From assembly GCA_944363715.1 (NCBI GenBank), contig CALVUX010000008.1, positions 2,928-66,927 of the forward strand: a DNA stretch of 64,000 nt, in the 5' to 3' direction. Below the pieces are notes generated by a model. The model was not told the origin of the DNA, searched no databases, and was given only the letters and a program-made list of their open reading frames with translations. A program made the translations under genes and the position numbers. The DNA is from an uncultured Bacilli bacterium. GTDB taxonomy: Bacteria; Bacillota_I; Bacilli_A; RF39; UBA660. Shown one piece after another: positions 1-47,900 of this stretch (position 1 is its first letter; every line of letters starts with the position of its first letter).

Positions 1-392
1 AGTCTTGTAAAAAGGCAGATATTTATGATGTAATTATGGATCTTGATGATAAATTTAATACTTTTGTTGGTGAAGGGGGAGTGATGTTAAGTGGTGGTGA
101 AAAACAAAGACTTGCTATTGCTAGAACATTACTTACGAAAAGTAATATAATTTTATTTGATGAAGCGACAAGTGCATTAGATAATGTTACTCAAGATAAA
201 GTTCAGAAAGCTATATATGGATTAGATAAAGATAAAACAATACTAATTATTGCTCATAGATTATCTACTGTTAATAAATGTGATAGAATAGTAGTTGTAG
301 ATGATGGGAATATTGTTGATATTGGTACACATAAGGAATTATATAAAAGATGTAGTAAATATAGAGAGTTATATGACTGTGAGGCAGTTTAA
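1..392 (+). CDS. ABC transporter ATP-binding/permease protein, C-terminal fragment (5' end lies outside the window)
   Basis: Frame is open from the window edge. ABC signature LSGGEKQRLAIARTLL, Walker B ILFDEATSALD and H-loop IIAHRL are present. Confidence 0.8.
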   Translation, partial: SCKKADIYDVIMDLDDKFNTFVGEGGVMLSGGEKQRLAIARTLLTKSNIILFDEATSALDNVTQDKVQKAIYGLDKDKTILIIAHRLSTVNKCDRIVVVDDGNIVDIGTHKELYKRCSKYRELYDCEAV

Positions 393-404
393 ATTTTTAT
401 CATA

Positions 405-758
405 AGTGTTTGCATAAATGTAATAATTATGATAAGATGTATATGTAAGAAAAATTTTCATACACTATAAAAGGAACACTTAATATTGTCGTGTTGAGTG
501 TACCTCTAATTATATTTTTGTTAGAGACACCTAATTCAATAGTTGTGAGTTAGGTGACTTTTTCTATATTAAGACTAAAAGTAGTAGCAAATTCTGAAAA
601 AGGATAATAATTACTAAAGATAAAATTAAAAAATCTTTCTTGTTCATTATTTCGACCTCCTTTCTGAGGCCACACCCAACTATTAAATGTTCCTTATAAA
701 TATAGTATCAAATTAATTTCTGTATAGCAAGAGAAAATGTAATAAATTAGTTACAAAT
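405..758 (-). repeat. Copy A of the ~355-bp type I TA-like module (reverse orientation)
   Basis: Near-identical stretches shared with 43237..43590 and 44463..44819, e.g. aaatgtaataaattagtt, ccaactattaaatgttcc, aaaaggaacacttaatatt. Hairpin cacctaa(N15)ttaggtg at 528..556. Confidence 0.8.
564..647 (-). CDS. Small hydrophobic peptide (27 aa, MNKKDFLILSLVIIILFQNLLLLLVLI); candidate type I toxin
   Basis: ATG preceded by the SD aaaggagg. Paralogous to the peptides at 43343 and 44567. Too short for the ORF track. Confidence 0.4.
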   Translation of the reverse strand: MNKKDFLILSLVIIILFQNLLLLLVLI

Positions 759-7320: not shown

Positions 7321-8064
7321 ATGAGTGAAGATGAATTATTTGCAGAAGATATGAGAAATGCAATGCTTAATATGAGGAGATATATTTTAAATAGCAAACC
7401 TCATATTAAGAAATATAATCATTATAGAAAGGTTCATGCTGATATTTTAGAGAGTATGGCTTCATATGTTTTTAATGGTAAATATGATTTTGGTAAATAT
7501 ATAGATGAATTAAATAAGGATAGAGAAGATAGTAGTTTTGAAAATTTAAAGGGCTTTGATCTATCTTCTGATAATCCTGATGATGTATCTATAATTGCTG
7601 AACTATTTGTGTATAAGAATTTAAAAGAAGTGCCTTCAGTTACAGAGATATATTTAGAAAAAAATAAATTTAAAAATGCAGATAAAGTTAAATTGTTAAA
7701 GGCAATGAATGAGTCTTATGTAGGATTATTTAAAGTAACTGACATAGATTTTGATAATGCTTATGTTACTTATGAAGATGTATTTACTCATAAAAAGTTT
7801 AAAGTAATTGATATTTCTATGAGTGCATTTTCTAAAGTTGATGATGATAATCCTATTTACATGTATAATAGAGTTATTACAGTAGATGGGATATCTTTTG
7901 GTACTGGTATTCATTGTAATCTTAGTTATAAGAATAAAGAGTTTAGAAAATTTCTTAAAGAACATGATTATAATGAGAGTACAGATTTTTTTAGATGTCT
8001 TACATTATATGAAATATCTAAAAAAACAAAAGATAAAGGAGTCCGTTATAATACTCAGTTTTAA
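7321..8064 (+). CDS. Hypothetical protein; intact paralogue of the interrupted gene at 9715..10485
   Basis: ~50-60% identity with the two halves of 9715..10485 along its full length. Confidence 0.6.
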   Translation: MSEDELFAEDMRNAMLNMRRYILNSKPHIKKYNHYRKVHADILESMASYVFNGKYDFGKYIDELNKDREDSSFENLKGFDLSSDNPDDVSIIAELFVYKNLKEVPSVTEIYLEKNKFKNADKVKLLKAMNESYVGLFKVTDIDFDNAYVTYEDVFTHKKFKVIDISMSAFSKVDDDNPIYMYNRVITVDGISFGTGIHCNLSYKNKEFRKFLKEHDYNESTDFFRCLTLYEISKKTKDKGVRYNTQF

Positions 8065-9714: not shown

Positions 9715-10485
9715 ATGGATGATGTTTTAGAAAGAATACTTGCTAATTTTAGTGAAGAAGATAGAGCTAGACTTTTCTTTAATGCAAGACAGTATCAATT
9801 AAATAGAAAGGCTCATATTAAAAAGTATAATAAATTTAGAAAATTACAGAGTGAAGTTATTGATAGTATGGAAAACTATATTTTAGATGGTAAATATGAT
9901 ATAAATAAATATCTTAAAGATATGACTAGTAAAGTTAATTTTGATAAATTAAAAGATAAGAGATTTTTTAATTTCGATTATGATGATCCTGATGATAGAA
10001 CAATATTAGACGAACTATTTATCTATAAAAATATTGAAGGTATACCTTCAGTAACTGAGATATATTTAGAGAAGAATAAACTTAGAAATGAGGATAAAGT
10101 TAAGATGTTAAATGCTATGAATAATTCTTATGTAAGTTTATTTTAAATAGTTGGTGTTGATAGAGAAGATGCTTATGTAATATATGAAGATGTTTTTACT
10201 AAAAAGAGATATAAGATTATAGATATTGCTATGAGTGGATCTGTTATAATAGATAAGAAAAGACCAATATATTATTATAATAGAATAATTACTATTGATG
10301 GTATATCTTATGGTACTGGTATTCATTGTATTATGACTGGTGATAATAAAGAGTTAATTAATTTTATTAAGAAACATGATTATAAAAAGAGTCCTGATTT
10401 TTATAGATGTTTAATGTTATATGCTATATCTAAAAAAGAAGAAAATATGGAAGTTAGTTATAATAATAGGTATGGTTATAGATAG
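9715..10485 (+). pseudogene. Paralogue of 7321..8064 interrupted by a single in-frame TAA at 10144..10146 (or stop read-through)
   Basis: ORFs 9715..10146 and 10231..10485 share one frame. Homology to the intact paralogue runs across the stop (YVGLFKVTDIDFDNAY versus YVSLF*IVGVDREDAY). Confidence 0.6.
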
Positions 10486-12427: not shown

Positions 12428-14062
12428 ATGAATGAGCGAATAGTGACAGGTGTTGTTGTAGATGCTGGACATGGAGGTGCTGATCCTGGTGCTGTTTCTT
12501 CTGGTTTACAAGAGAAAGATTTTACATTAGATGCATCTTTATATATGTATGAAAGGTTACAACAGTTAGGGATACCTGCTGTTTTAACAAGAGATTCTGA
12601 TGAAAACTTAAGTAGAACGGAAAGACTTAGACGGGCTAATGAGGCTTTTGGAGGTAGTAGTAATGCTATACTTATATCTAATCATATAAATGCTGGAGGT
12701 GGAGAAGGAGCAGAGGTTATTTATGCTTTACGTAATAATTCTACTTTAGCCCAGTCTATCTTAGAAGAGATAGGTAGTGAAGGACAAATTATGCGTAAGT
12801 ATTATCAAAGAAGACTTCCTGAAGATCCATCTAAAGATTATTATTACATCATTAGAGAGACTGCTCCTATGCAATCTTTACTTGTTGAATATGGTTTTAT
12901 TGATAATGCTAATGATAGGGTTAAGTTGCAAAATGATTTATTAAATTATGTAGAAGCAGTTGTTAGAGCGATTGCAGGGTATGCTGGTGTTCCTTATACT
13001 CCTCCCGAAGGAAGTGGTACTAATTTTTATACTGTAGTTAAAGGTGATAGTCTATGGACTATAGCTCGTAAATTCGGTGTTACAGTACAACAGTTAAGAG
13101 ATGCTAATAATTTAACAAGTGATACTCTTACTGTTGGTCAACTTCTTAGAATTCCTACTAGTGGTGGTACTGATAATGGAACTGGAGGAAATGTTACTTA
13201 TACTGTGCAAAGAGGAGATAGTCTTTGGAGTATTGCAAGTCGTTATGGAATAAGTGTTAATGATTTAAGACGTGCAAATAATCTTACAAGTGATACTCTT
13301 AGTATAGGACAAGTTTTAATTATTCCTGGTGTTGGTAATGGTAATGATGATAATGATAATATAACAGGGCCTTCTACTACTTATACAGTACAAAGAGGAG
13401 ATAGTTTATGGAGTATTGCTAACCGTTTTGGAGTTACTGTACAACAATTAAGAGATGCTAATAACTTAACAAGTGATACTTTAAGTATAGGGCAAGTCTT
13501 AACTATACCTGGTGTTAGTGGAGAAGATGATGGTGAGAGTGATAATGATGGTGCAGTGTTCTATTACACAGTTGAACGAGGTGATAGTCTTTGGAGTATA
13601 GCTCGTAAATTTGGTATTACTGTACAAGAGATAAGAGATGCTAATGATTTAGTTAGTGATACTTTAAGTGTAGGACAATCTTTAATAATACCTGGTCTTA
13701 GTGCAGGCGATGATTTAGAAGATGATAATAATAATGAAACTAATCCTTCTACTTATACAGTTCAATCAGGTGACAGTTTATGGAGTATTGCTAATAAATT
13801 TGGTGTTACTGTCAATGATTTAAAGAATGCTAATGGATTAACATCTAATCTTCTTTCTATAGGACAAGTATTAATTATTCCTAGTTCTAGTACTAATAAT
13901 CCAACTAATCCTAGTTATACAACATACACAGTACAAAGAGGAGATAGTCTTTGGAGTATAGCTAATAACTTTGGTGTTACTGTTGATGCTATTAAGACGT
14001 TAAACAATTTGACATCTAATTTACTTTCTGTTGGTCAAGTATTACAAATACCTAATAATTGA
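12428..14062 (+). CDS. N-acetylmuramoyl-L-alanine amidase (Amidase_3) with six C-terminal LysM repeats
   Basis: VVVDAGHGGADPGAVS amidase_3 N-terminus. Six LysM units of the form YTVQRGDSLWSIA...VGQVL.IP. Confidence 0.85.
   Translation: MNERIVTGVVVDAGHGGADPGAVSSGLQEKDFTLDASLYMYERLQQLGIPAVLTRDSDENLSRTERLRRANEAFGGSSNAILISNHINAGGGEGAEVIYALRNNSTLAQSILEEIGSEGQIMRKYYQRRLPEDPSKDYYYIIRETAPMQSLLVEYGFIDNANDRVKLQNDLLNYVEAVVRAIAGYAGVPYTPPEGSGTNFYTVVKGDSLWTIARKFGVTVQQLRDANNLTSDTLTVGQLLRIPTSGGTDNGTGGNVTYTVQRGDSLWSIASRYGISVNDLRRANNLTSDTLSIGQVLIIPGVGNGNDDNDNITGPSTTYTVQRGDSLWSIANRFGVTVQQLRDANNLTSDTLSIGQVLTIPGVSGEDDGESDNDGAVFYYTVERGDSLWSIARKFGITVQEIRDANDLVSDTLSVGQSLIIPGLSAGDDLEDDNNNETNPSTYTVQSGDSLWSIANKFGVTVNDLKNANGLTSNLLSIGQVLIIPSSSTNNPTNPSYTTYTVQRGDSLWSIANNFGVTVDAIKTLNNLTSNLLSVGQVLQIPNN
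13020..14050 (+). repeat. Intragenic tandem LysM-encoding DNA repeats (~6 units)
   Basis: Repeated nucleotide blocks, e.g. caaagaggagatagtctttggagtat... . Local GC is higher than the surroundings. Confidence 0.7.
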
Positions 14063-22117: not shown

Positions 22118-22119
22118 TA

Positions 22120-22458
22120 TTTTAGACAAGTGCTGGGATTAATTCCTAGAGGAAAGTCCATGCTCACACAGTCTGAGATGATTGTAGTGTTCGTGCTTAA
22201 GGAAAAAATAACTTAAGGTAGTGTTTAACACTAACGGCTTAGTCTTTACCTAAGGGTTTTCTATGGTAAAGGCTTATAAAGTGCCACAGAGACGAGTGTC
22301 TAGGAAACTAGATGAGTGAAACGCGGTAAACCCCACGAGTGAGAAACCCAAATTATGGTAGGGGAGCTTTAAGAAAAGAAATGAATTTTCTTAAGGACTA
22401 GAAATAGTAGATAAATACTTGTCACCTAGAAATAGGTACAGAACATGGCTTATTAAAT
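22120..22458 (+). ncRNA. rnpB: RNase P RNA, bacterial type B
   Basis: Conserved blocks GAGGAAAGTCCATGCTCACAC, AGTGCCACAG-GACG, AACGCGGTAAACCCC-CGAG-GAGAAACCCAAAT, GGTAGGGGA and ACAGAACATGGCTTA, all collinear with B. subtilis rnpB. It sits downstream of gpsB as in Bacillus. Confidence 0.85.
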
Positions 22459-43145: not shown

Positions 43146-43236
43146 GTATTTAGGCTCTTTTATAATAAAGTTTATATATAACATGATTATTTTCAATAAT
43201 ATAATTAGAAACTATTTTCTATTTGCGGGAATTCGC

Positions 43237-43590
43237 AACTAATTTATTACATTTTTCTTGATATATAGAAATTAATATGATACTATATTTGTAGGAACAT
43301 TTAATAGTTGGGTGGATATCTCCTAGAAAGGAGATTGATATTATGAATAGAAAAGATTTATTAATAGTCTCTTTAATCATAATTATCCTTTTACTTATAA
43401 AGTTATTATTTTTAGCGATATAAATAAAAGCCACCTAACTCACAACTGTTGAATTAGGGGCTAATCCATAATATAAAAATTTGGAGGTCCACTCAACATG
43501 GGAATATTAAGTGTTCCTTTTCATATTGTATGAATTTTTCTTACAAATATACTATATCATAGTTATTACATTTATGCAAATTTATTTTTA
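43237..43590 (+). repeat. Copy B of the ~355-bp type I TA-like module
   Basis: Collinear with copy C (44463..44819) and, as reverse complement, with copy A (405..758). Confidence 0.85.
43343..43423 (+). CDS. Small hydrophobic peptide (26 aa, MNRKDLLIVSLIIIILLLIKLLFLAI); candidate type I toxin
   Basis: SD aaaggag sits in the 3' arm of the hairpin atctcc/ggagat. Two paralogues exist in the window. Confidence 0.4.
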   Translation: MNRKDLLIVSLIIIILLLIKLLFLAI

Positions 43591-43621
43591 CTTACATGAT
43601 ATTATTTAAATAAATATAATG

Positions 43622-44344
43622 TTATGATAGACTTCTATTTGTAATATCTGCTCTTTCTCTTTGATTTAGACCATAACAACTAACTGGTGTTAAATTATTA
43701 TTCTTATCTTTTACAAAAACATCAGTAAATCTATAAAAGTTATCACTTGTATTATCGTAGAATACAAAGTTAATGTCGCCTGTACTTGTAACTAGACATG
43801 CTGTAAGTTCTGCCTGTTTAGTCTTAAACACTTGATTATCTTGATTCATTTAAATATAGCTAGTGAAATCGTCTAGAGAAAAGTTTTCACTAAAACTTCC
43901 TCTTGGGTGGGAATGTCCGTGACAGACAACAAAACCATTATATCGGTTATTATTAAGTTTATTTACTAAATCATTTCTCATATTTTCATCATAATTTGCT
44001 TCTGCTCTTTGTCTATTATCTCTTGAGCTTGATGCAATAAAACTATCAAATTCTATTACATTGTTTTCAACTTCTTTTCCATATAGGAAAAATGGTACTT
44101 CTTTTTTCTCTATATTGGTAACATCTTGTACTCCTAACAAAGATCCATATACTTCTTCACTTAATATTATTTTTGAGTTTGGCATATTATTTATAATATC
44201 AGAATTAATTGGAGTCATTTCTCCATAAGCACTATATGTATTGAAGTTTTGTTGATGGTAAGCTCCGTAAGGATTTTTATGAATCATAATGTCTTTTACT
44301 TTTTGTGAGTATTGTTCTCTAGTCATAATTATTTTTCCTTTCAA
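43622..44344 (-). pseudogene. RadC-like JAB/MPN-domain protein interrupted by an in-frame TAA (ORFs 43850..44344 and 43622..43849 abut as ...TSYI*MNQ...)
   Basis: HGHSHPRGSFSENFSLDD resembles the RadC JAMM motif HNHPSG...S..D. The two ORFs are contiguous in one frame. Confidence 0.4.
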
Positions 44345-44462
44345 TGTTTTATTAATAGTTATATTGTCAATAATTCTATCTAATAATTATTTTAGCATAA
44401 TTCTTTCATTTTCGGTATTGTATATTTAATAATAAAAAAATGATATATTTACGAAAACCTGT

Positions 44463-44819
44463 AACTAATTTATTACATTTTTCCTTGTTATCTAGAAATT
44501 AATATGATACTCTATATGTAGGAACATTTAATAGTTGGGTGGGACCTCAGAAAGGAGGTCTAGCTAATGAACAAGAAAGATTATTTGATTTTTTCTTTAG
44601 TAGTTATGTTGTTTCTTCAAGATATCTTGTTGCTATTTGCCATACTTGCTTTAAAATGAAAGAAACCGCCTAACTTACAACTGTTGGATTAGGTGGCTCT
44701 CGAAAAATAATTAGGGGTCCACTCAACATGCGAATATTAAGTGTTCCTTTTAATATTGTATGAATTTTTCTTACAAATATACTATATCATAATTATTACA
44801 TTTATGCAAATTTATTTTT
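44463..44819 (+). repeat. Copy C of the ~355-bp type I TA-like module
   Basis: See copy B. Confidence 0.85.
44567..44659 (+). CDS. Small hydrophobic peptide (30 aa, MNKKDYLIFSLVVMLFLQDILLLFAILALK); candidate type I toxin
   Basis: SD aaaggagg sits in the 3' arm of the hairpin gacctc/gaggtc. Confidence 0.4.
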   Translation: MNKKDYLIFSLVVMLFLQDILLLFAILALK

Positions 44820-45807
44820 GTATAACTAGTGATACATCTTTAAAGTAATAATTTAATATCTGTTTATAGTTATAACCTAACTCTGATAGATTATCTGCCC
44901 CTATAATACTTAGACCTAGTCCACTACCTATTCCTCTTGTTATGAAAGTAAGATAATCTTTCTTGATAATTATAGTAATGTCTGTTGAAGGTAAATCTAA
45001 ATAGACTGCTAGACTTCTGGCATCTATTTTTCTTTCTCCTAAGTCTAATTCTTTTATTCTGTTAGAGTTACTGATACTAGTAATCTTTATATTAAAATTA
45101 TCACTTTTTAGATTTAATTTTTCTTTAAAATCTTTAATACTGTAGTCTTTTCTTTGTAAATAATTAGGGTATGCTAAATCCCAGAGACTTTCTTTTTTTA
45201 CAGTATAAGGAATACTTTTATCTTCTTCGGTGTAGCCATTACTAACTAAGTGGGTAAAACATTTAATGGGTTTATTATTATTAATTAAATACTCGCCATT
45301 AGTTTCATCTATTACTTTATTAAAAATAGTAAATTTAGATTTATAAGTTTCAGGATAAGTAACTTTATAATAATTATAGTTATGATATGATAAAGATAAT
45401 TTATTTAAGTCTAAATAATTATTCTTTAGATTATAGATTATTTCTCCTCTGTATAAAACTGTTAAAGCTTTTAGAGTTTCTTCTTTTAAAGAGATATTTA
45501 TATTACATAATAATAAACTTAATAGTAGGTCTTTCATAGTCATTTTTTCTTTAGTATTAAGAGTAATTAAATAATCATTTAAGTAAGTCTTGTTATTTTC
45601 GATAGTAATCATTTTAGTACTAATACCATTTACAATAAAAACAATTTTATTACCATTAAATTTAATATCATGAGTAACTAAATAACTTCTAGCTTTCTTT
45701 TCTAAGTCATCTTCCTCTAAATCTTCACCAAATTCATAATCAACATTTAAATATAAGTATAATACTTCTTCATTATTACTTCTTGCAATTTTATAACTTT
45801 CTAACAT
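44812..45807 (-). CDS. SpoIID/LytB-domain protein (putative)
   Basis: The C-terminal RGIGSGLGLSIIGADNLSELGYNYKQILNYYFKDV resembles the SpoIID C-terminal block GHGVGMSQ.GA..MA..G..Y..IL..YY. Confidence 0.45.
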   Translation of the reverse strand: MLESYKIARSNNEEVLYLYLNVDYEFGEDLEEDDLEKKARSYLVTHDIKFNGNKIVFIVNGISTKMITIENNKTYLNDYLITLNTKEKMTMKDLLLSLLLCNINISLKEETLKALTVLYRGEIIYNLKNNYLDLNKLSLSYHNYNYYKVTYPETYKSKFTIFNKVIDETNGEYLINNNKPIKCFTHLVSNGYTEEDKSIPYTVKKESLWDLAYPNYLQRKDYSIKDFKEKLNLKSDNFNIKITSISNSNRIKELDLGERKIDARSLAVYLDLPSTDITIIIKKDYLTFITRGIGSGLGLSIIGADNLSELGYNYKQILNYYFKDVSLVIQK

Positions 45808-46821: not shown

Positions 46822-46931
46822 AGTCTAAAATCAATCCTTTCTACTTTTTAAAGTATAACATAATTTTTCATTAAATTATCATATTTTTTACATAATTTTT
46901 GTGATATAATCTATTCTAGGTGAGGAAGAAG

Positions 46932-47900
46932 ATGATAGATAAGCAGTTTAAGAATCTTGAAGAACAAATAGAAATACTTAAATATAAGGGTATGACTATT
47001 ACAGATGAAAAATATACTAAGAAGATATTACTAAGAGAAAATTACTTCTTTATATCTGGTTATAGATATCCTTTTATGAGAAGTATGACTGATAAACATT
47101 TCTTAGAAGGGGTTACTTTTGAAGAGATGTATAGTTTGTTTCTATTTGATAGAGCGATTAGAAATGTGTTCTTTAAGTATTTACTTGTTATTGAAAATAA
47201 CTTAAAATCTATATTTTCATATCAGTTATCTAAGAAATATGGATATAAAGAGAAATATTATTTGCGTAATAAAAACTTTACTAATGATAAGAATAAACAA
47301 AAACAAGTAAATGATTTGATTAAAAAGATGAAAAGACAAATTAGGATTAATGGAAGTCAACATACAGCGACTGCACATTATATGTCTAATTATGGTTATG
47401 TTCCACTTTGGATTTTAGTTAAAGTTTTATCTTTTGGAATAGTTGGAGAATTATTTTCAATAATGAAATATGATGATCAAGTAAATATTTGTAAGATTTA
47501 TAATATACCATTAGATGATTTTAGTAATTATTTACCAATACTTTCTAATTATCGTAATTTGTGTGCTCATGAAGATATTTTATATGAAAATAGAACTCAG
47601 AAGAAAATTAAAGGAACGAAGTTTCATGAGTTACTTGGTTTAGAAAAAGATGATGAAGGGTACTATACTAAAGGAACTAATGATTTATTTGCCCTTCTTA
47701 TTATAATGAAGAGAATGTTAAGTTATGATGAATTTAAAGATATGTGTTTAGAGCTTGATAAAAGAATAGATAATCTTGAATATAATTTGCATAGTATTAA
47801 AATAGATAAAATATTAGAAAAAATGGGGTTTCCTAAAAATTATATGGAACTTGCTAATATTGAGAGGAGAGATGTAGATAATGAAGTCAGAGAGAATTAA
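46932..47900 (+). CDS. Abortive-infection protein, Abi_2 (AbiD/AbiF/AbiD1) family
   Basis: Family hallmarks: EQIEILKYKGMTI, YFFISGY, FLFDRAIRN, IENNLKS, YVPLWILVKVLSFG and the invariant YRNLCAHED. An extended -10 TGaTATAAT lies upstream at 46903..46910. Confidence 0.75.
   Translation: MIDKQFKNLEEQIEILKYKGMTITDEKYTKKILLRENYFFISGYRYPFMRSMTDKHFLEGVTFEEMYSLFLFDRAIRNVFFKYLLVIENNLKSIFSYQLSKKYGYKEKYYLRNKNFTNDKNKQKQVNDLIKKMKRQIRINGSQHTATAHYMSNYGYVPLWILVKVLSFGIVGELFSIMKYDDQVNICKIYNIPLDDFSNYLPILSNYRNLCAHEDILYENRTQKKIKGTKFHELLGLEKDDEGYYTKGTNDLFALLIIMKRMLSYDEFKDMCLELDKRIDNLEYNLHSIKIDKILEKMGFPKNYMELANIERRDVDNEVREN

What the first reader, a model, noticed from the sequence alone, without database searches (positions are those of the whole stretch)
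43471..43590. Conserved tail of the module is probably a non-coding antisense RNA rather than a second peptide
Copies B and C contain an SD plus an 11-codon ORF (MGILSVPFHIV and MRILSVPFNIV). In copy A the start codon of the same nucleotide block is ACG, while the rest of the block is conserved. So the conservation is at the RNA/DNA level. The opposite-strand promoter TTGCAT-17-TATAGT (plus-strand atgcaa at 43574..43579, actata at 43551..43556) is conserved in all three copies (TAAGAT -10 in copy A). It would produce an antisense RNA of ~130 nt ending at the shared hairpin.
Basis: partly seen in the sequence, partly recalled or inferred. Interest (0 to 1): 0.6.

Follow-up and report, generated by a model that had tools for sequence, protein, structure and literature searches.

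The report
Two-strand RNA tail of toxin module
The conserved tail is not a second peptide gene: one strand appears to be the end of a small-toxin mRNA that folds back onto its own start, and the other encodes the antisense RNA that probably keeps the toxin off, in a previously undescribed toxin-antitoxin family common in uncultured gut Bacilli.

Summary
Three copies of a ~400-nt module (A 380-790 minus; B 43190-43610; C 44416-44840) share a tail that is far better conserved (83-88%) than the 26-30-aa hydrophobic peptide ORF (40%).

The 11-codon ORF is an accident. Among 136 related modules from uncultured gut Bacilli MAGs, only 31 keep an in-frame ATG and only 8 also have an SD-like motif.

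The opposite-strand promoter looks real. TTGnnn-17-TGnTAnnnT is present in 130/136 modules with a variable spacer. The shared hairpin is followed by a T-run on the antisense strand in 136/136 modules, against 7/136 on the sense strand. This predicts a ~105-125-nt antisense RNA.

On the sense strand the tail box 43487-43518 pairs with the extreme 5' end of the toxin mRNA (43293-43317). This 5'-3' helix is kept by compensatory changes across subfamilies with unrelated sequences: 90.5% of cells paired, 17/21 pairs compensatory, and G·U 97 versus A·C 10.

Best reading: a new type I toxin-antitoxin family with 3'-overlapping antisense control plus a hok/aapA-like 5'-3' lock. No expression data exist, so the mechanism is inferred.

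The parts
43258..43286 (+). Toxin mRNA promoter, copy B: TTGATA-17-TACTAT with TG extended -10. Predicted start at about 43293.
   Evidence: TTGnnn-16..18-TAnnnT ending 3-9 nt before GGAAC occurs in 105/136 relatives.
43293..43317 (+). U5 box: the extreme 5' end of the toxin mRNA (AGGAACATTTAATAGTTGGGTGGAT). It is the 5' strand of the long-distance helix.
   Evidence: Invariant in copies A, B and C. The 21-mer is found exactly in more than 119 genome stretches. Predicted 97% paired in the full-length mRNA. Covariation.
43318..43335 (+). Local hairpin ATCTCC/GGAGAT that sequesters the Shine-Dalgarno sequence (SD 43330-43334).
   Evidence: Probability that the SD core is unpaired is 0.17 across 124 modules.
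43343..43423 (+). Toxin ORF, 26 aa: MNRKDLLIVSLIIIILLLIKLLFLAI. Family consensus is MNKKDFLILSLVILIFLLVLLLFIVLI.
   Evidence: 91 distinct peptides with the same pattern. No Pfam or NCBIfam match.
43430..43461 (-). Shared hairpin, acting as the intrinsic terminator of the antisense RNA. The T-run is the complement of plus-strand 43420-43429. There is no T-run on the sense strand.
   Evidence: T-rich tail on the minus strand in 136/136 modules vs 7/136 on the plus strand. The helix holds most of the alignment's 7 both-sides-changed pairs.
43487..43518 (+). T3 box: the 3' strand of the long-distance helix. H2 strand 43487-43497, 7-nt bulge 43498-43504 (holds the ATG/ACG difference), H1 strand 43505-43518.
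43518..43529 (+). U-rich run directly after helix H1. Inferred 3' end of the toxin mRNA. On the other strand it is the A-rich linker of the antisense RNA.
   Evidence: Mean of 7.9 T in the 12 nt after T3; at least 8 T in 88/136 modules. The role is inferred.
43498..43533 (+). Judged spurious.
   Evidence: in-frame ATG in 31/136 modules, with an SD-like motif in 8/136, and the stop position is not conserved.
43425..43545 (-). Predicted antisense RNA (putative antitoxin), about 121 nt. It has a 5' hairpin SL1 (43527-43545), an A-rich linker, hairpin SL2 (the complement of T3, whose loop is complementary to the mRNA bulge), a linker, and terminator SL3.
   Evidence: -38.4 kcal/mol, z = -5.85.
43551..43579 (-). 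Antisense RNA promoter: -35 TTGCAT (43579-43574), 17-nt spacer, TG (43559-43558), -10 TATAGT (43556-43551).
   Evidence: 130/136 modules; 17-nt spacer in 124; TG in 122.
44485..44809 (+). Copy C of the whole module: U5 44520-44542, toxin ORF 44567-44659, hairpin 44666-44698, T3 44717-44748, antisense promoter 44781-44809 on the minus strand.
410..730 (-). Copy A of the whole module, on the minus strand: U5 694-672, toxin ORF 647-564, hairpin 556-528, T3 503-472 with ACG in the bulge. Its antisense RNA is on the window + strand, with -35 at 410-415, -10 at 432-437 and terminator at 528-556.

Best explanation
[quoted passage not shown] The tail is used on both strands.

Sense strand. The toxin mRNA starts at AGGAAC (about 43293). 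It carries a locally sequestered SD and encodes a 26-30-aa membrane peptide. It reads through the shared hairpin, which has no U-tract on this strand, and ends at the U-run after the T3 box. T3 pairs with the first ~25 nt of the mRNA. The helix has H1 (13-14 bp), a 6-10-nt bulge on the 3' side, and H2 (8-16 bp). It closes the whole mRNA into a compact form with a buried 5' end and a buried SD. That form is probably stable and translationally inert.

Antisense strand. A conserved extended -10 promoter drives a ~105-125-nt RNA. It begins with a small hairpin, contains a copy-like mimic of the mRNA 5' end folded as hairpin SL2, and stops at the shared hairpin. It is perfectly complementary to the last ~100-120 nt of the toxin mRNA.

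Inferred action. The antisense RNA docks on the exposed bulge and/or the hairpin loop, then displaces the mRNA's own 5' end from T3. This creates a long duplex for RNase III and an unprotected 5' end, so the toxin mRNA is destroyed.

Shown in silico: both promoters, the strand-specific terminator, the peptide ORF, and the 5'-3' helix with covariation.
Inferred: transcript ends, toxicity, and the mode of repression.
For: - Three copies with non-coding parts better conserved than the ORF.
- More than 119 genomic stretches carry the exact 21-nt 5' box.
- 136 modules, including five sequence-divergent subfamilies, were recovered by nhmmer.
- 5'-3' duplex energy is -31.7 kcal/mol for cognate pairs against -12.3 for shuffled T3. 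Divergent 5' boxes give -31.8 with their own T3 and -22.4 with canonical T3 (down to -11).
- 90.5% of cells are paired against 38-45% when the partner is slid. 17/21 pairs change on both sides, and 0/500 shuffles reach any observed measure.
- G·U outnumbers A·C by 97 to 10 on the plus strand, so the helix forms in sense RNA.
- The antisense promoter is conserved in 130/136 modules.
- The terminator T-run is on the antisense strand only.
- The antisense RNA folds with z = -5.85. Its SL2, SL3 and SL1 are supported.
- The peptide family is conserved.
[quoted passage not shown] 5'-3' long-distance interactions (LDIs) are known in hok and aapA (PMC6733600).
Against: - There are no transcript data. 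All hosts are uncultured MAGs, so the transcript ends, peptide toxicity and antitoxin function are untested.
- A helix closing a ~200-nt domain followed by a U-run is not a canonical terminator, so the mRNA 3' end is uncertain.
- Thermodynamic modelling shows no clear translational switch. The probability that the SD is unpaired is 0.17 when free, 0.25 with the tail blocked and 0.29 with the tail removed. How the toxin is ever translated remains open.
- The strand-specific G·U support for SL2 is partly a by-product of the constraints from the sense helix.
- The antisense RNA has no above-chance complementarity to the translation-initiation region (-19.1 vs -17.1 kcal/mol).
Confidence: 0.75

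Rival explanations
1. Antisense RNA only. The toxin mRNA stops at the shared hairpin as in par, the tail is never transcribed on the sense strand, and its conservation reflects only the antisense RNA's own sequence and structure.
For: Convergent promoters sharing one hairpin resemble par. The antisense RNA folds well by itself.
Against: The hairpin lacks a sense-strand T-run in 129/136 modules. Covariation links the tail to the mRNA 5' end, which is not part of the antisense RNA. The wobble asymmetry (G·U 97 vs A·C 10) places that helix on the sense strand. The antisense RNA resembles the 5' box rather than complementing it, so it could not pair with it.
Confidence: 0.08
2. Sense-strand element only. 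The tail is a 3' UTR lock for the toxin mRNA and the opposite-strand 'promoter' is not used, so there is no antisense antitoxin.
For: In a single sequence, promoter-like matches are at chance level (17 found vs 14 expected). There are no expression data.
Against: TTG, TG and TA...T are nearly invariant while the 17-nt spacer varies freely across 130/136 modules. The T-run after the hairpin is on the antisense strand in 136/136 modules. A covarying hairpin sits exactly at the predicted antisense start. A small hydrophobic toxin with no repressor would be hard to keep in many copies.
Confidence: 0.07
3. The tail encodes a second small peptide (the 11-codon ORF).
For: Copies B and C have an SD-like motif, an ATG and an open frame.
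Against: Copy A has ACG. Only 31/136 relatives have an in-frame ATG and only 8/136 also have an SD-like motif. ORF length varies from 1 to at least 20 codons. The variable columns fall exactly on the start codon.
Confidence: 0.02
4. DNA-level inverted repeat. The 5' box and tail box are terminal inverted repeats of a small mobile element, or paired protein-binding sites, and the covariation reflects that.
For: The modules are multi-copy, sometimes tandem, and 28/136 lie next to tRNA 3' ends. An 11-nt direct repeat brackets the module.
Against: Mismatches are overwhelmingly G·U on one strand (97 vs 10 A·C; H1 alone 50 vs 3), which is a signature of RNA and not of DNA or protein recognition. The conserved asymmetric bulge and the adjacent U-run are also RNA-like. 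No transposase is associated, and there are no hits in the phage, plasmid or viral collections.
Confidence: 0.03

Closest known systems
bsrG/SR4 and txpA/RatA (Bacillus subtilis type I TA with 3'-overlapping antisense RNA)
   Same: Convergent toxin mRNA and antisense RNA overlap at their 3' ends by about 75-120 nt. The toxin is a small hydrophobic peptide. The antisense RNA does not cover the ribosome-binding site. Repression goes through RNase III cleavage of the duplex, and for SR4 also through remote refolding (PMC4147584).
   Different: There is no detectable peptide homology. Here the overlapped region contains the 3' strand of a covarying 5'-3' helix, so the antisense RNA competes with the mRNA's own 5' end. 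No separate sense-strand terminator is visible. The modules are chromosomal and not found on phage records.
par / Fst-RNA I-RNA II (Enterococcus faecalis pAD1)
   Same: Both have convergent promoters, a hairpin shared by both transcripts, an SD-sequestering 5' stem-loop, an intramolecular helix that hides the extreme 5' end of the toxin mRNA, and complementary hairpin loops as a plausible first contact (PMC7472228).
   Different: The hairpin terminates only the antisense strand. There is no DRa/DRb-type complementarity to the initiation region. The peptides lack the PXXXG motif and the charged C-terminal tail. The antisense RNA is ~120 nt rather than ~40-65 nt. The partner of the 5' end lies downstream of the hairpin, inside the antisense gene.
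hok/Sok and aapA/IsoA (Gram-negative type I TA with a 5'-3' long-distance interaction)
   Same: The full-length toxin mRNA is closed by pairing of its 5' and 3' ends into a compact, presumably inert form. That pairing is supported by compensatory changes across many loci (PMC6733600).
   Different: In those systems the 3' strand acts as or controls the anti-SD, 3' trimming activates the mRNA, and the antisense RNA binds the 5' region. Here the SD is held by a local hairpin. Removing the tail opens it only slightly (0.17 to 0.29). The antisense RNA targets the 3' strand itself.

Membership tests
Type I toxin-antitoxin systems (general) | Small (<60 aa) hydrophobic peptide ORF with its own SD | tested here: met
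   A 25-31-aa peptide with a polar N-terminus and one hydrophobic helix, in 91 distinct variants. Family columns for the start codon read A102/T111/G106, and the SD is conserved.
Type I toxin-antitoxin systems (general) | Antisense RNA gene with sequence complementarity to the toxin mRNA | tested here: met
   A conserved promoter (130/136) and a strand-specific terminator (136/136) define a ~120-nt gene inside the toxin 3' region. Expression itself was not testable.
Type I toxin-antitoxin systems (general) | The peptide is toxic and the RNA neutralises it | not testable with these tools
   All hosts are uncultured MAGs and no experiment was possible.
Fst/par family | Fst-type peptide (PXXXG(C) motif, conserved Trp, charged C-terminal tail; Pfam Fst_toxin) | tested here: not met
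   No Pfam or NCBIfam hit at E <= 10. The peptides have no Pro or Gly motif and end hydrophobic, e.g. ...LLFIVLI.
Fst/par family | Bidirectional intrinsic terminator shared by both RNAs | tested here: not met
   A T-rich tail follows the hairpin on the antisense strand in 136/136 modules, but on the sense strand in only 7/136.
Fst/par family | Direct repeats DRa/DRb that give antisense complementarity to the SD and start codon | tested here: not met
   The duplex between antisense RNA and initiation region is -19.1 kcal/mol against -17.1 ± 3.6 for shuffled antisense RNA.
Fst/par family | [quoted passage not shown] | tested here: met
   U5 is 97% paired and the SD core 83% paired in the full-length mRNA. 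The partner of the 5' end differs from par.
3'-overlap type I TA of Bacillus (txpA/RatA, bsrG/SR4, bsrE/SR5, yonT/SR6) | Convergent transcripts overlapping at their 3' ends, with the antisense RNA not covering the RBS | tested here: met
   The predicted overlap runs from about 43425 to about 43529, and the toxin stop codon is at 43421-43423. This rests on predicted transcript ends.
3'-overlap type I TA of Bacillus (txpA/RatA, bsrG/SR4, bsrE/SR5, yonT/SR6) | Toxin homologous to TxpA, BsrG, BsrE or YonT | tested here: not met
   No family hit in Pfam or NCBIfam.
3'-overlap type I TA of Bacillus (txpA/RatA, bsrG/SR4, bsrE/SR5, yonT/SR6) | RNase III-dependent decay of the duplex | not testable with these tools
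   Inferred from the >100-bp perfect duplex only.
hok/Sok - aapA/IsoA type (LDI-controlled toxin mRNA) | 5'-3' long-distance interaction supported by covariation | tested here: met
hok/Sok - aapA/IsoA type (LDI-controlled toxin mRNA) | The LDI sequesters the SD, and 3' trimming activates translation | tested here: inconclusive
   The SD is held by a local hairpin. In silico removal of T3 raises the probability that the SD is unpaired from 0.17 to 0.29, and 37/124 modules open by more than 0.2.
hok/Sok - aapA/IsoA type (LDI-controlled toxin mRNA) | Antisense RNA encoded opposite the 5' UTR or start of the toxin mRNA | tested here: not met
   The antisense gene lies opposite the 3' tail.
Rfam RNA families | Match to any curated covariance model | tested here: not met
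   There was no hit at gathering score in the window apart from RNase P. At E <= 10 in 43150-44900 the only matches were chance-level.

The most novel reading that the evidence does not exclude
The antitoxin RNA is a structural mimic of the toxin mRNA's own 5' end and works by strand exchange. The mRNA's 5'-3' helix, whose GG.../...CC base abuts a U-tract, serves both as the mRNA's unconventional intrinsic terminator and as a cap that protects both ends. The antisense RNA docks on the helix's conserved bulge, which is also the most variable and possibly specificity-setting segment. It then evicts the 5' end, exposing it to 5' exonuclease and creating an RNase III substrate. Every nucleotide of the box would then be read in two or three mutually exclusive pairings. 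These are U5:T3, U5 with the hairpin's 5' arm, and the antisense hairpin SL2. That would explain an exact 21-mer shared by more than 100 species-level genomes.
Probability: 0.3. Interest if true: 0.75.

Novelty: new variant of a known kind. Interest (0 to 1): 0.6.

Why it matters
[quoted passage not shown] Here a whole superfamily appears in uncultured, small-genome gut Bacilli from rabbit, horse, ruminant, mouse, chicken and human MAGs. It has at least five subfamilies, often several copies per genome, and sometimes tandem arrays. It matches no Rfam, Pfam or NCBIfam model.

The module combines two regulatory ideas previously seen in separate lineages. One is the 3'-overlapping antisense RNA of Gram-positive systems. 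The other is the 5'-3' mRNA lock of hok/aapA. Here the antisense target is the lock itself.

This gives a compact, testable model for RNA strand-exchange control. It also provides a ready covariance signature for annotating these loci, and a likely explanation for one of the most conserved non-coding 21-mers in these genomes.

Tried and rejected
- Rfam at gathering score (whole window) and at E <= 10 (43150-44900) gave nothing relevant.
- Pfam and NCBIfam on eight peptides gave nothing.
- blastn of module B in 'distant' mode against the phage and plasmid collections gave no match.
- A viral-contig scan with the tail 19-mer gave 4 hits. On reading they were chance matches inside coding DNA. The 5' box had 0 viral hits.
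- A par-like trans pairing of the antisense RNA with the SD/start region is not above shuffled controls.
- An SR4-like or hok-like SD switch has only weak support. Blocking or deleting the tail changes predicted SD accessibility only from 0.17 to 0.25-0.29.
- The sense-strand local hairpin in T3 is rejected as a selected element, because its wobble positions become A·C on that strand.
- The DNA inverted-repeat or MITE reading is rejected on G·U asymmetry.
- RNAalifold did not recover the antisense 5' hairpin because of register shifts in the alignment. It was therefore assessed by per-sequence folding.
- Shokeen et al. 2009 (PMC2648210), on the par upstream helix, is not held in the library.

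Full report
**What is there.** The window holds three copies of a ~400-nt module: A at 380-790 on the minus strand, B at 43190-43610 and C at 44416-44840.

Each copy has the following parts:
- a sigma-70-type promoter with an extended -10 (B: TTGATA-17-TGaTACTAT, 43258-43286);
- an invariant 5' box, AGGAACATTTAATAGTTGGGTG;
- a short hairpin that buries the Shine-Dalgarno sequence;
- a 26-30-codon ORF for a hydrophobic peptide (B: MNRKDLLIVSLIIIILLLIKLLFLAI);
- a G+C-richer hairpin (43430-43461);
- the 'tail' of the finding.

These are the 11-codon ORFs in B and C, ACG in A, and the opposite-strand TTGCAT-17-TATAGT promoter (TAAGAT in A). Three-way identity is 88% in the 5' box, 88% in the tail box and 83% in the antisense promoter. 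It is only 40% in the peptide ORF and 20% in the flank.

**Relatives.** No Rfam, Pfam or NCBIfam family matches. There is nothing similar in the phage or plasmid collections. Almost all are uncultured gut 'Bacilli', 'Tenericutes' or 'Mollicutes' MAGs, including Candidatus Onthousia and Firmicutes bacterium CAG:582. One is a closed 1.52-Mb chromosome, OZ006970.1, which probably contains this window.

From these loci I extracted 111 full modules. An nhmmer profile then found 36 further hits without the exact anchor, giving 136 full-length modules in all. They include subfamilies whose 5' box, peptide and tail box are quite different in sequence.

**The 11-codon ORF is not a gene.** In the family alignment the ATG columns read T52/C47 and G64/T36, and the family consensus upstream is TTGGCAAC, not an SD. 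Only 31/136 modules have an in-frame ATG and only 8/136 also have an SD-like motif. The 'peptide' ranges from 1 to at least 20 codons.

**The antisense RNA gene is well supported by comparison.**
- On the minus strand, TTG (107-109 of 111), TG at -15/-14 (102 and 108 of 111) and TA...T (111, 111 and 108 of 111) are nearly invariant, while the spacer sequence varies.
- 130/136 modules have TTGnnn-(16-18)-TAnnnT at this place, 124 of them with a 17-nt spacer and 122 with TG.
- The shared hairpin has a T-rich tail on the minus strand in 136/136 modules but on the plus strand in only 7/136 (for B and A). It therefore terminates the antisense transcript and not the toxin mRNA.
- The predicted RNA (43545 to about 43425, about 121 nt) folds at -38.4 kcal/mol with z = -5.85.
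- RNAalifold on 39 diverse members recovers hairpin SL2 and the terminator, with 7 pairs changed on both sides.
- The first 22 nt form a small hairpin with many different stems (ATGAAG/CTTCAT, GCAAG/CTTGC, ATGAGT/ACTCAT and others). Its MFE is -3.8 kcal/mol against -0.4 for shuffles.

RNAfold pairs the first ~25 nt of the toxin mRNA with the tail box in all three copies, with z from -3.7 to -6.1. In copy B, 43293-43306 pairs with 43505-43518 (H1, 14 bp) and 43307-43317 pairs with 43487-43497 (H2). A 7-nt bulge at 43498-43504 separates them.

Evidence across 124 unique 5'/3' pairs:
- Cognate duplex energy is -31.7 ± 3.8 kcal/mol, against -12.3 ± 3.0 for shuffled tails.
- Divergent 5' boxes pair with their own tails at -31.8 kcal/mol, but with canonical tails at only -22.4 (about -11 for one subfamily).
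- Every subfamily keeps the H1-bulge-H2 layout.

Formal counting on 42 mini-constructs:
- 90.5% of cells are paired, against 38-45% when the partner is slid.
- 17 of 21 pairs change on both sides.
- 0 of 500 shuffles reach any observed measure.
- H1 alone is 95.6% paired, with 10/13 pairs compensatory.

An example of a compensatory change is GGAUACAUUUGA/UCAAAUGUAUCC in L022 against GGAUACGUUUGA/UCAAACGUAUCC in L089.

Non-Watson-Crick cells are G·U on the plus strand 97 times and A·C 10 times; in H1 the counts are 50 and 3. The helix therefore forms in plus-strand RNA. This rules out a DNA-level inverted repeat. It also means the toxin mRNA must extend through the hairpin into the tail. A U-rich run follows H1 directly, with a mean of 7.9 T in 12 nt. 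I infer that this marks the mRNA 3' end.

**Consequences.**
- The antisense RNA is perfectly complementary to the last ~100-120 nt of the toxin mRNA.
- Its SL2 segment is sense-like to the mRNA 5' box (GGAACACUUAAUAU...GUUGAGUG against GGAACAUUUAAUAGUUGGGUG). It therefore competes with the 5' end for the tail box.
- The SL2 loop is the complement of the exposed bulge.
- The segment just upstream of H2 covaries with the anti-SD side of the 5' hairpin (ATTGCCAA/TTGGCAA, GTTACCA/TGGTAAC, CTACCT/AGGTAG, AGCCA/TGGCT; read from the sequences). In the window's subfamily this makes it look like an SD (GGAGGTCC), which may explain the false 'SD'.
- In every subfamily the H2 strand of the 5' box is also complementary to the 5' arm of the shared hairpin. 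This suggests alternative or co-transcriptional folds.

**Mechanism.**
- Shown in silico: two convergent conserved promoters, a strand-specific terminator, a conserved peptide ORF (91 variants; consensus MNKKDFLILSLVILIFLLVLLLFIVLI), and a covarying 5'-3' helix.
- Predicted: in the full-length mRNA the 5' box is 97% paired and the SD core 83% paired.
- Inferred, by analogy with txpA/RatA and bsrG/SR4 (PMC4147584): the antisense RNA binds the 3' tail, displaces the 5' end, and the long duplex is cut by RNase III, leading to decay.
- A translational switch is not supported. Blocking or deleting the tail raises SD accessibility only from 0.17 to 0.25-0.29. The antisense RNA also has no above-chance complementarity to the initiation region.

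**Comparison with known systems.**
- Like the Gram-positive type I systems, the module has a 3' overlap.
- It shares convergent promoters, a shared hairpin, a 5' stem-loop and a 5'-end-hiding helix with par/Fst (PMC7472228). It fails three par-defining tests: no bidirectional terminator, no DRa/DRb pairing and no Fst-type peptide.
- It shares the 5'-3' long-distance interaction with hok and aapA (PMC6733600). It differs in placing the antisense gene opposite the 3' strand, and it does not use the interaction as the anti-SD.
- Two literature searches found no description of this family.

**Verdict.** This is a new, widespread family of type I toxin-antitoxin-like modules with a dual-strand RNA element. 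All functional statements await transcript mapping and genetics.

Noticed in passing
window 43223-43238 (copy B); equivalents in A (~765-750, minus strand) and C (~44450-44465): A terminator-like hairpin (TTGCGGGAATTCGCAA, followed by T-rich sequence) lies just upstream of the toxin promoter. It covaries between copies (TTACGAAAATTTGTAA in A) and in same-subfamily relatives (ACGAAAAnnCGTAAC). It may insulate the module from read-through.
   Followed up: partly
window 43244-43254 and 43563-43573 (also in copies A and C): An 11-nt direct repeat, TTATTACATTT, brackets the module. One copy is upstream of the toxin -35 and the other is inside the antisense promoter spacer. It is conserved in all three copies and in same-subfamily relatives. 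It could be a scar of tandem duplication or a protein-binding site.
   Followed up: no
L080 2515-3533 (CALVQV010000004.1); L005, L076, L099: Modules occur as head-to-tail arrays. L080 has four copies with a ~333-nt period, and several other loci have pairs.
   Followed up: no
28 of 136 related modules (e.g. L003 about 1343-1720): About a fifth of family members lie within 200 nt of the 3' end of a tRNA gene (Leu, Thr, Met, Arg, Ala, Cys). The tRNA always faces the antisense-promoter side.
   Followed up: partly
window 43622-44344 (minus strand), between copies B and C: Two small ORFs (75 aa and 164 aa) are bracketed by the two direct-repeat modules. The 164-aa product has an HGHSHP motif that resembles a JAMM/MPN metalloprotease site (my reading, not tested), but it has no Pfam hit. 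Their transcription would run into copy B's antisense gene. An Abi_2 abortive-infection-like gene lies nearby at 46920-47900.
   Followed up: partly
L020 around 2204-2224 (OZ006970.1) and L017 around 189-560: Some copies are decayed. One module is interrupted right after the SD hairpin by unrelated DNA, and another has a frameshifted toxin ORF while its RNA boxes are retained.
   Followed up: no
all subfamilies, e.g. window 43307-43314 vs 43432-43439: The H2 strand of the 5' box (GUUGGGUG) is also complementary to the 5' arm of the shared hairpin (CACCUAAC). The same three-way relation recurs with unrelated sequences in divergent subfamilies, e.g. AUCAGAUGC / GCAUCUGAU / GCAUUUGAU. This suggests alternative or co-transcriptional folds.
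   Followed up: partly
L001 901-1209 and 2618-2922; L022 5137-5472; L044 525-859; L079 3626-3941: Sister subfamilies have different peptides (e.g. MKTKTFILKALKLITIILFLLIIMIVVIKK, MTKREFSQFIIILLLFLVVIILLLK). They share an almost identical antisense promoter and 5' hairpin region, and often sit beside canonical modules in the same genome.
   Followed up: partly
window 22118-22457 (+): Bacterial RNase P RNA class B (288.7 bits), consistent with a Bacillota or Mollicutes-like host.
   Followed up: no
window 12999-13997; 7387-7854 vs 9799-10266: Tandem 171-189-nt repeats of 5-6 units at 61-75% identity, and a 2.4-kb-spaced duplicated segment at about 72% identity. I guess these are repeat domains or paralogous genes.
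   Followed up: no
L007, L054, L060, L076, L089: Several module-bearing contigs belong to MAGs labelled 'uncultured Muribaculaceae' (Bacteroidota). Given their AT-rich, Bacilli-like sequence, these contigs are probably mis-binned.
   Followed up: no
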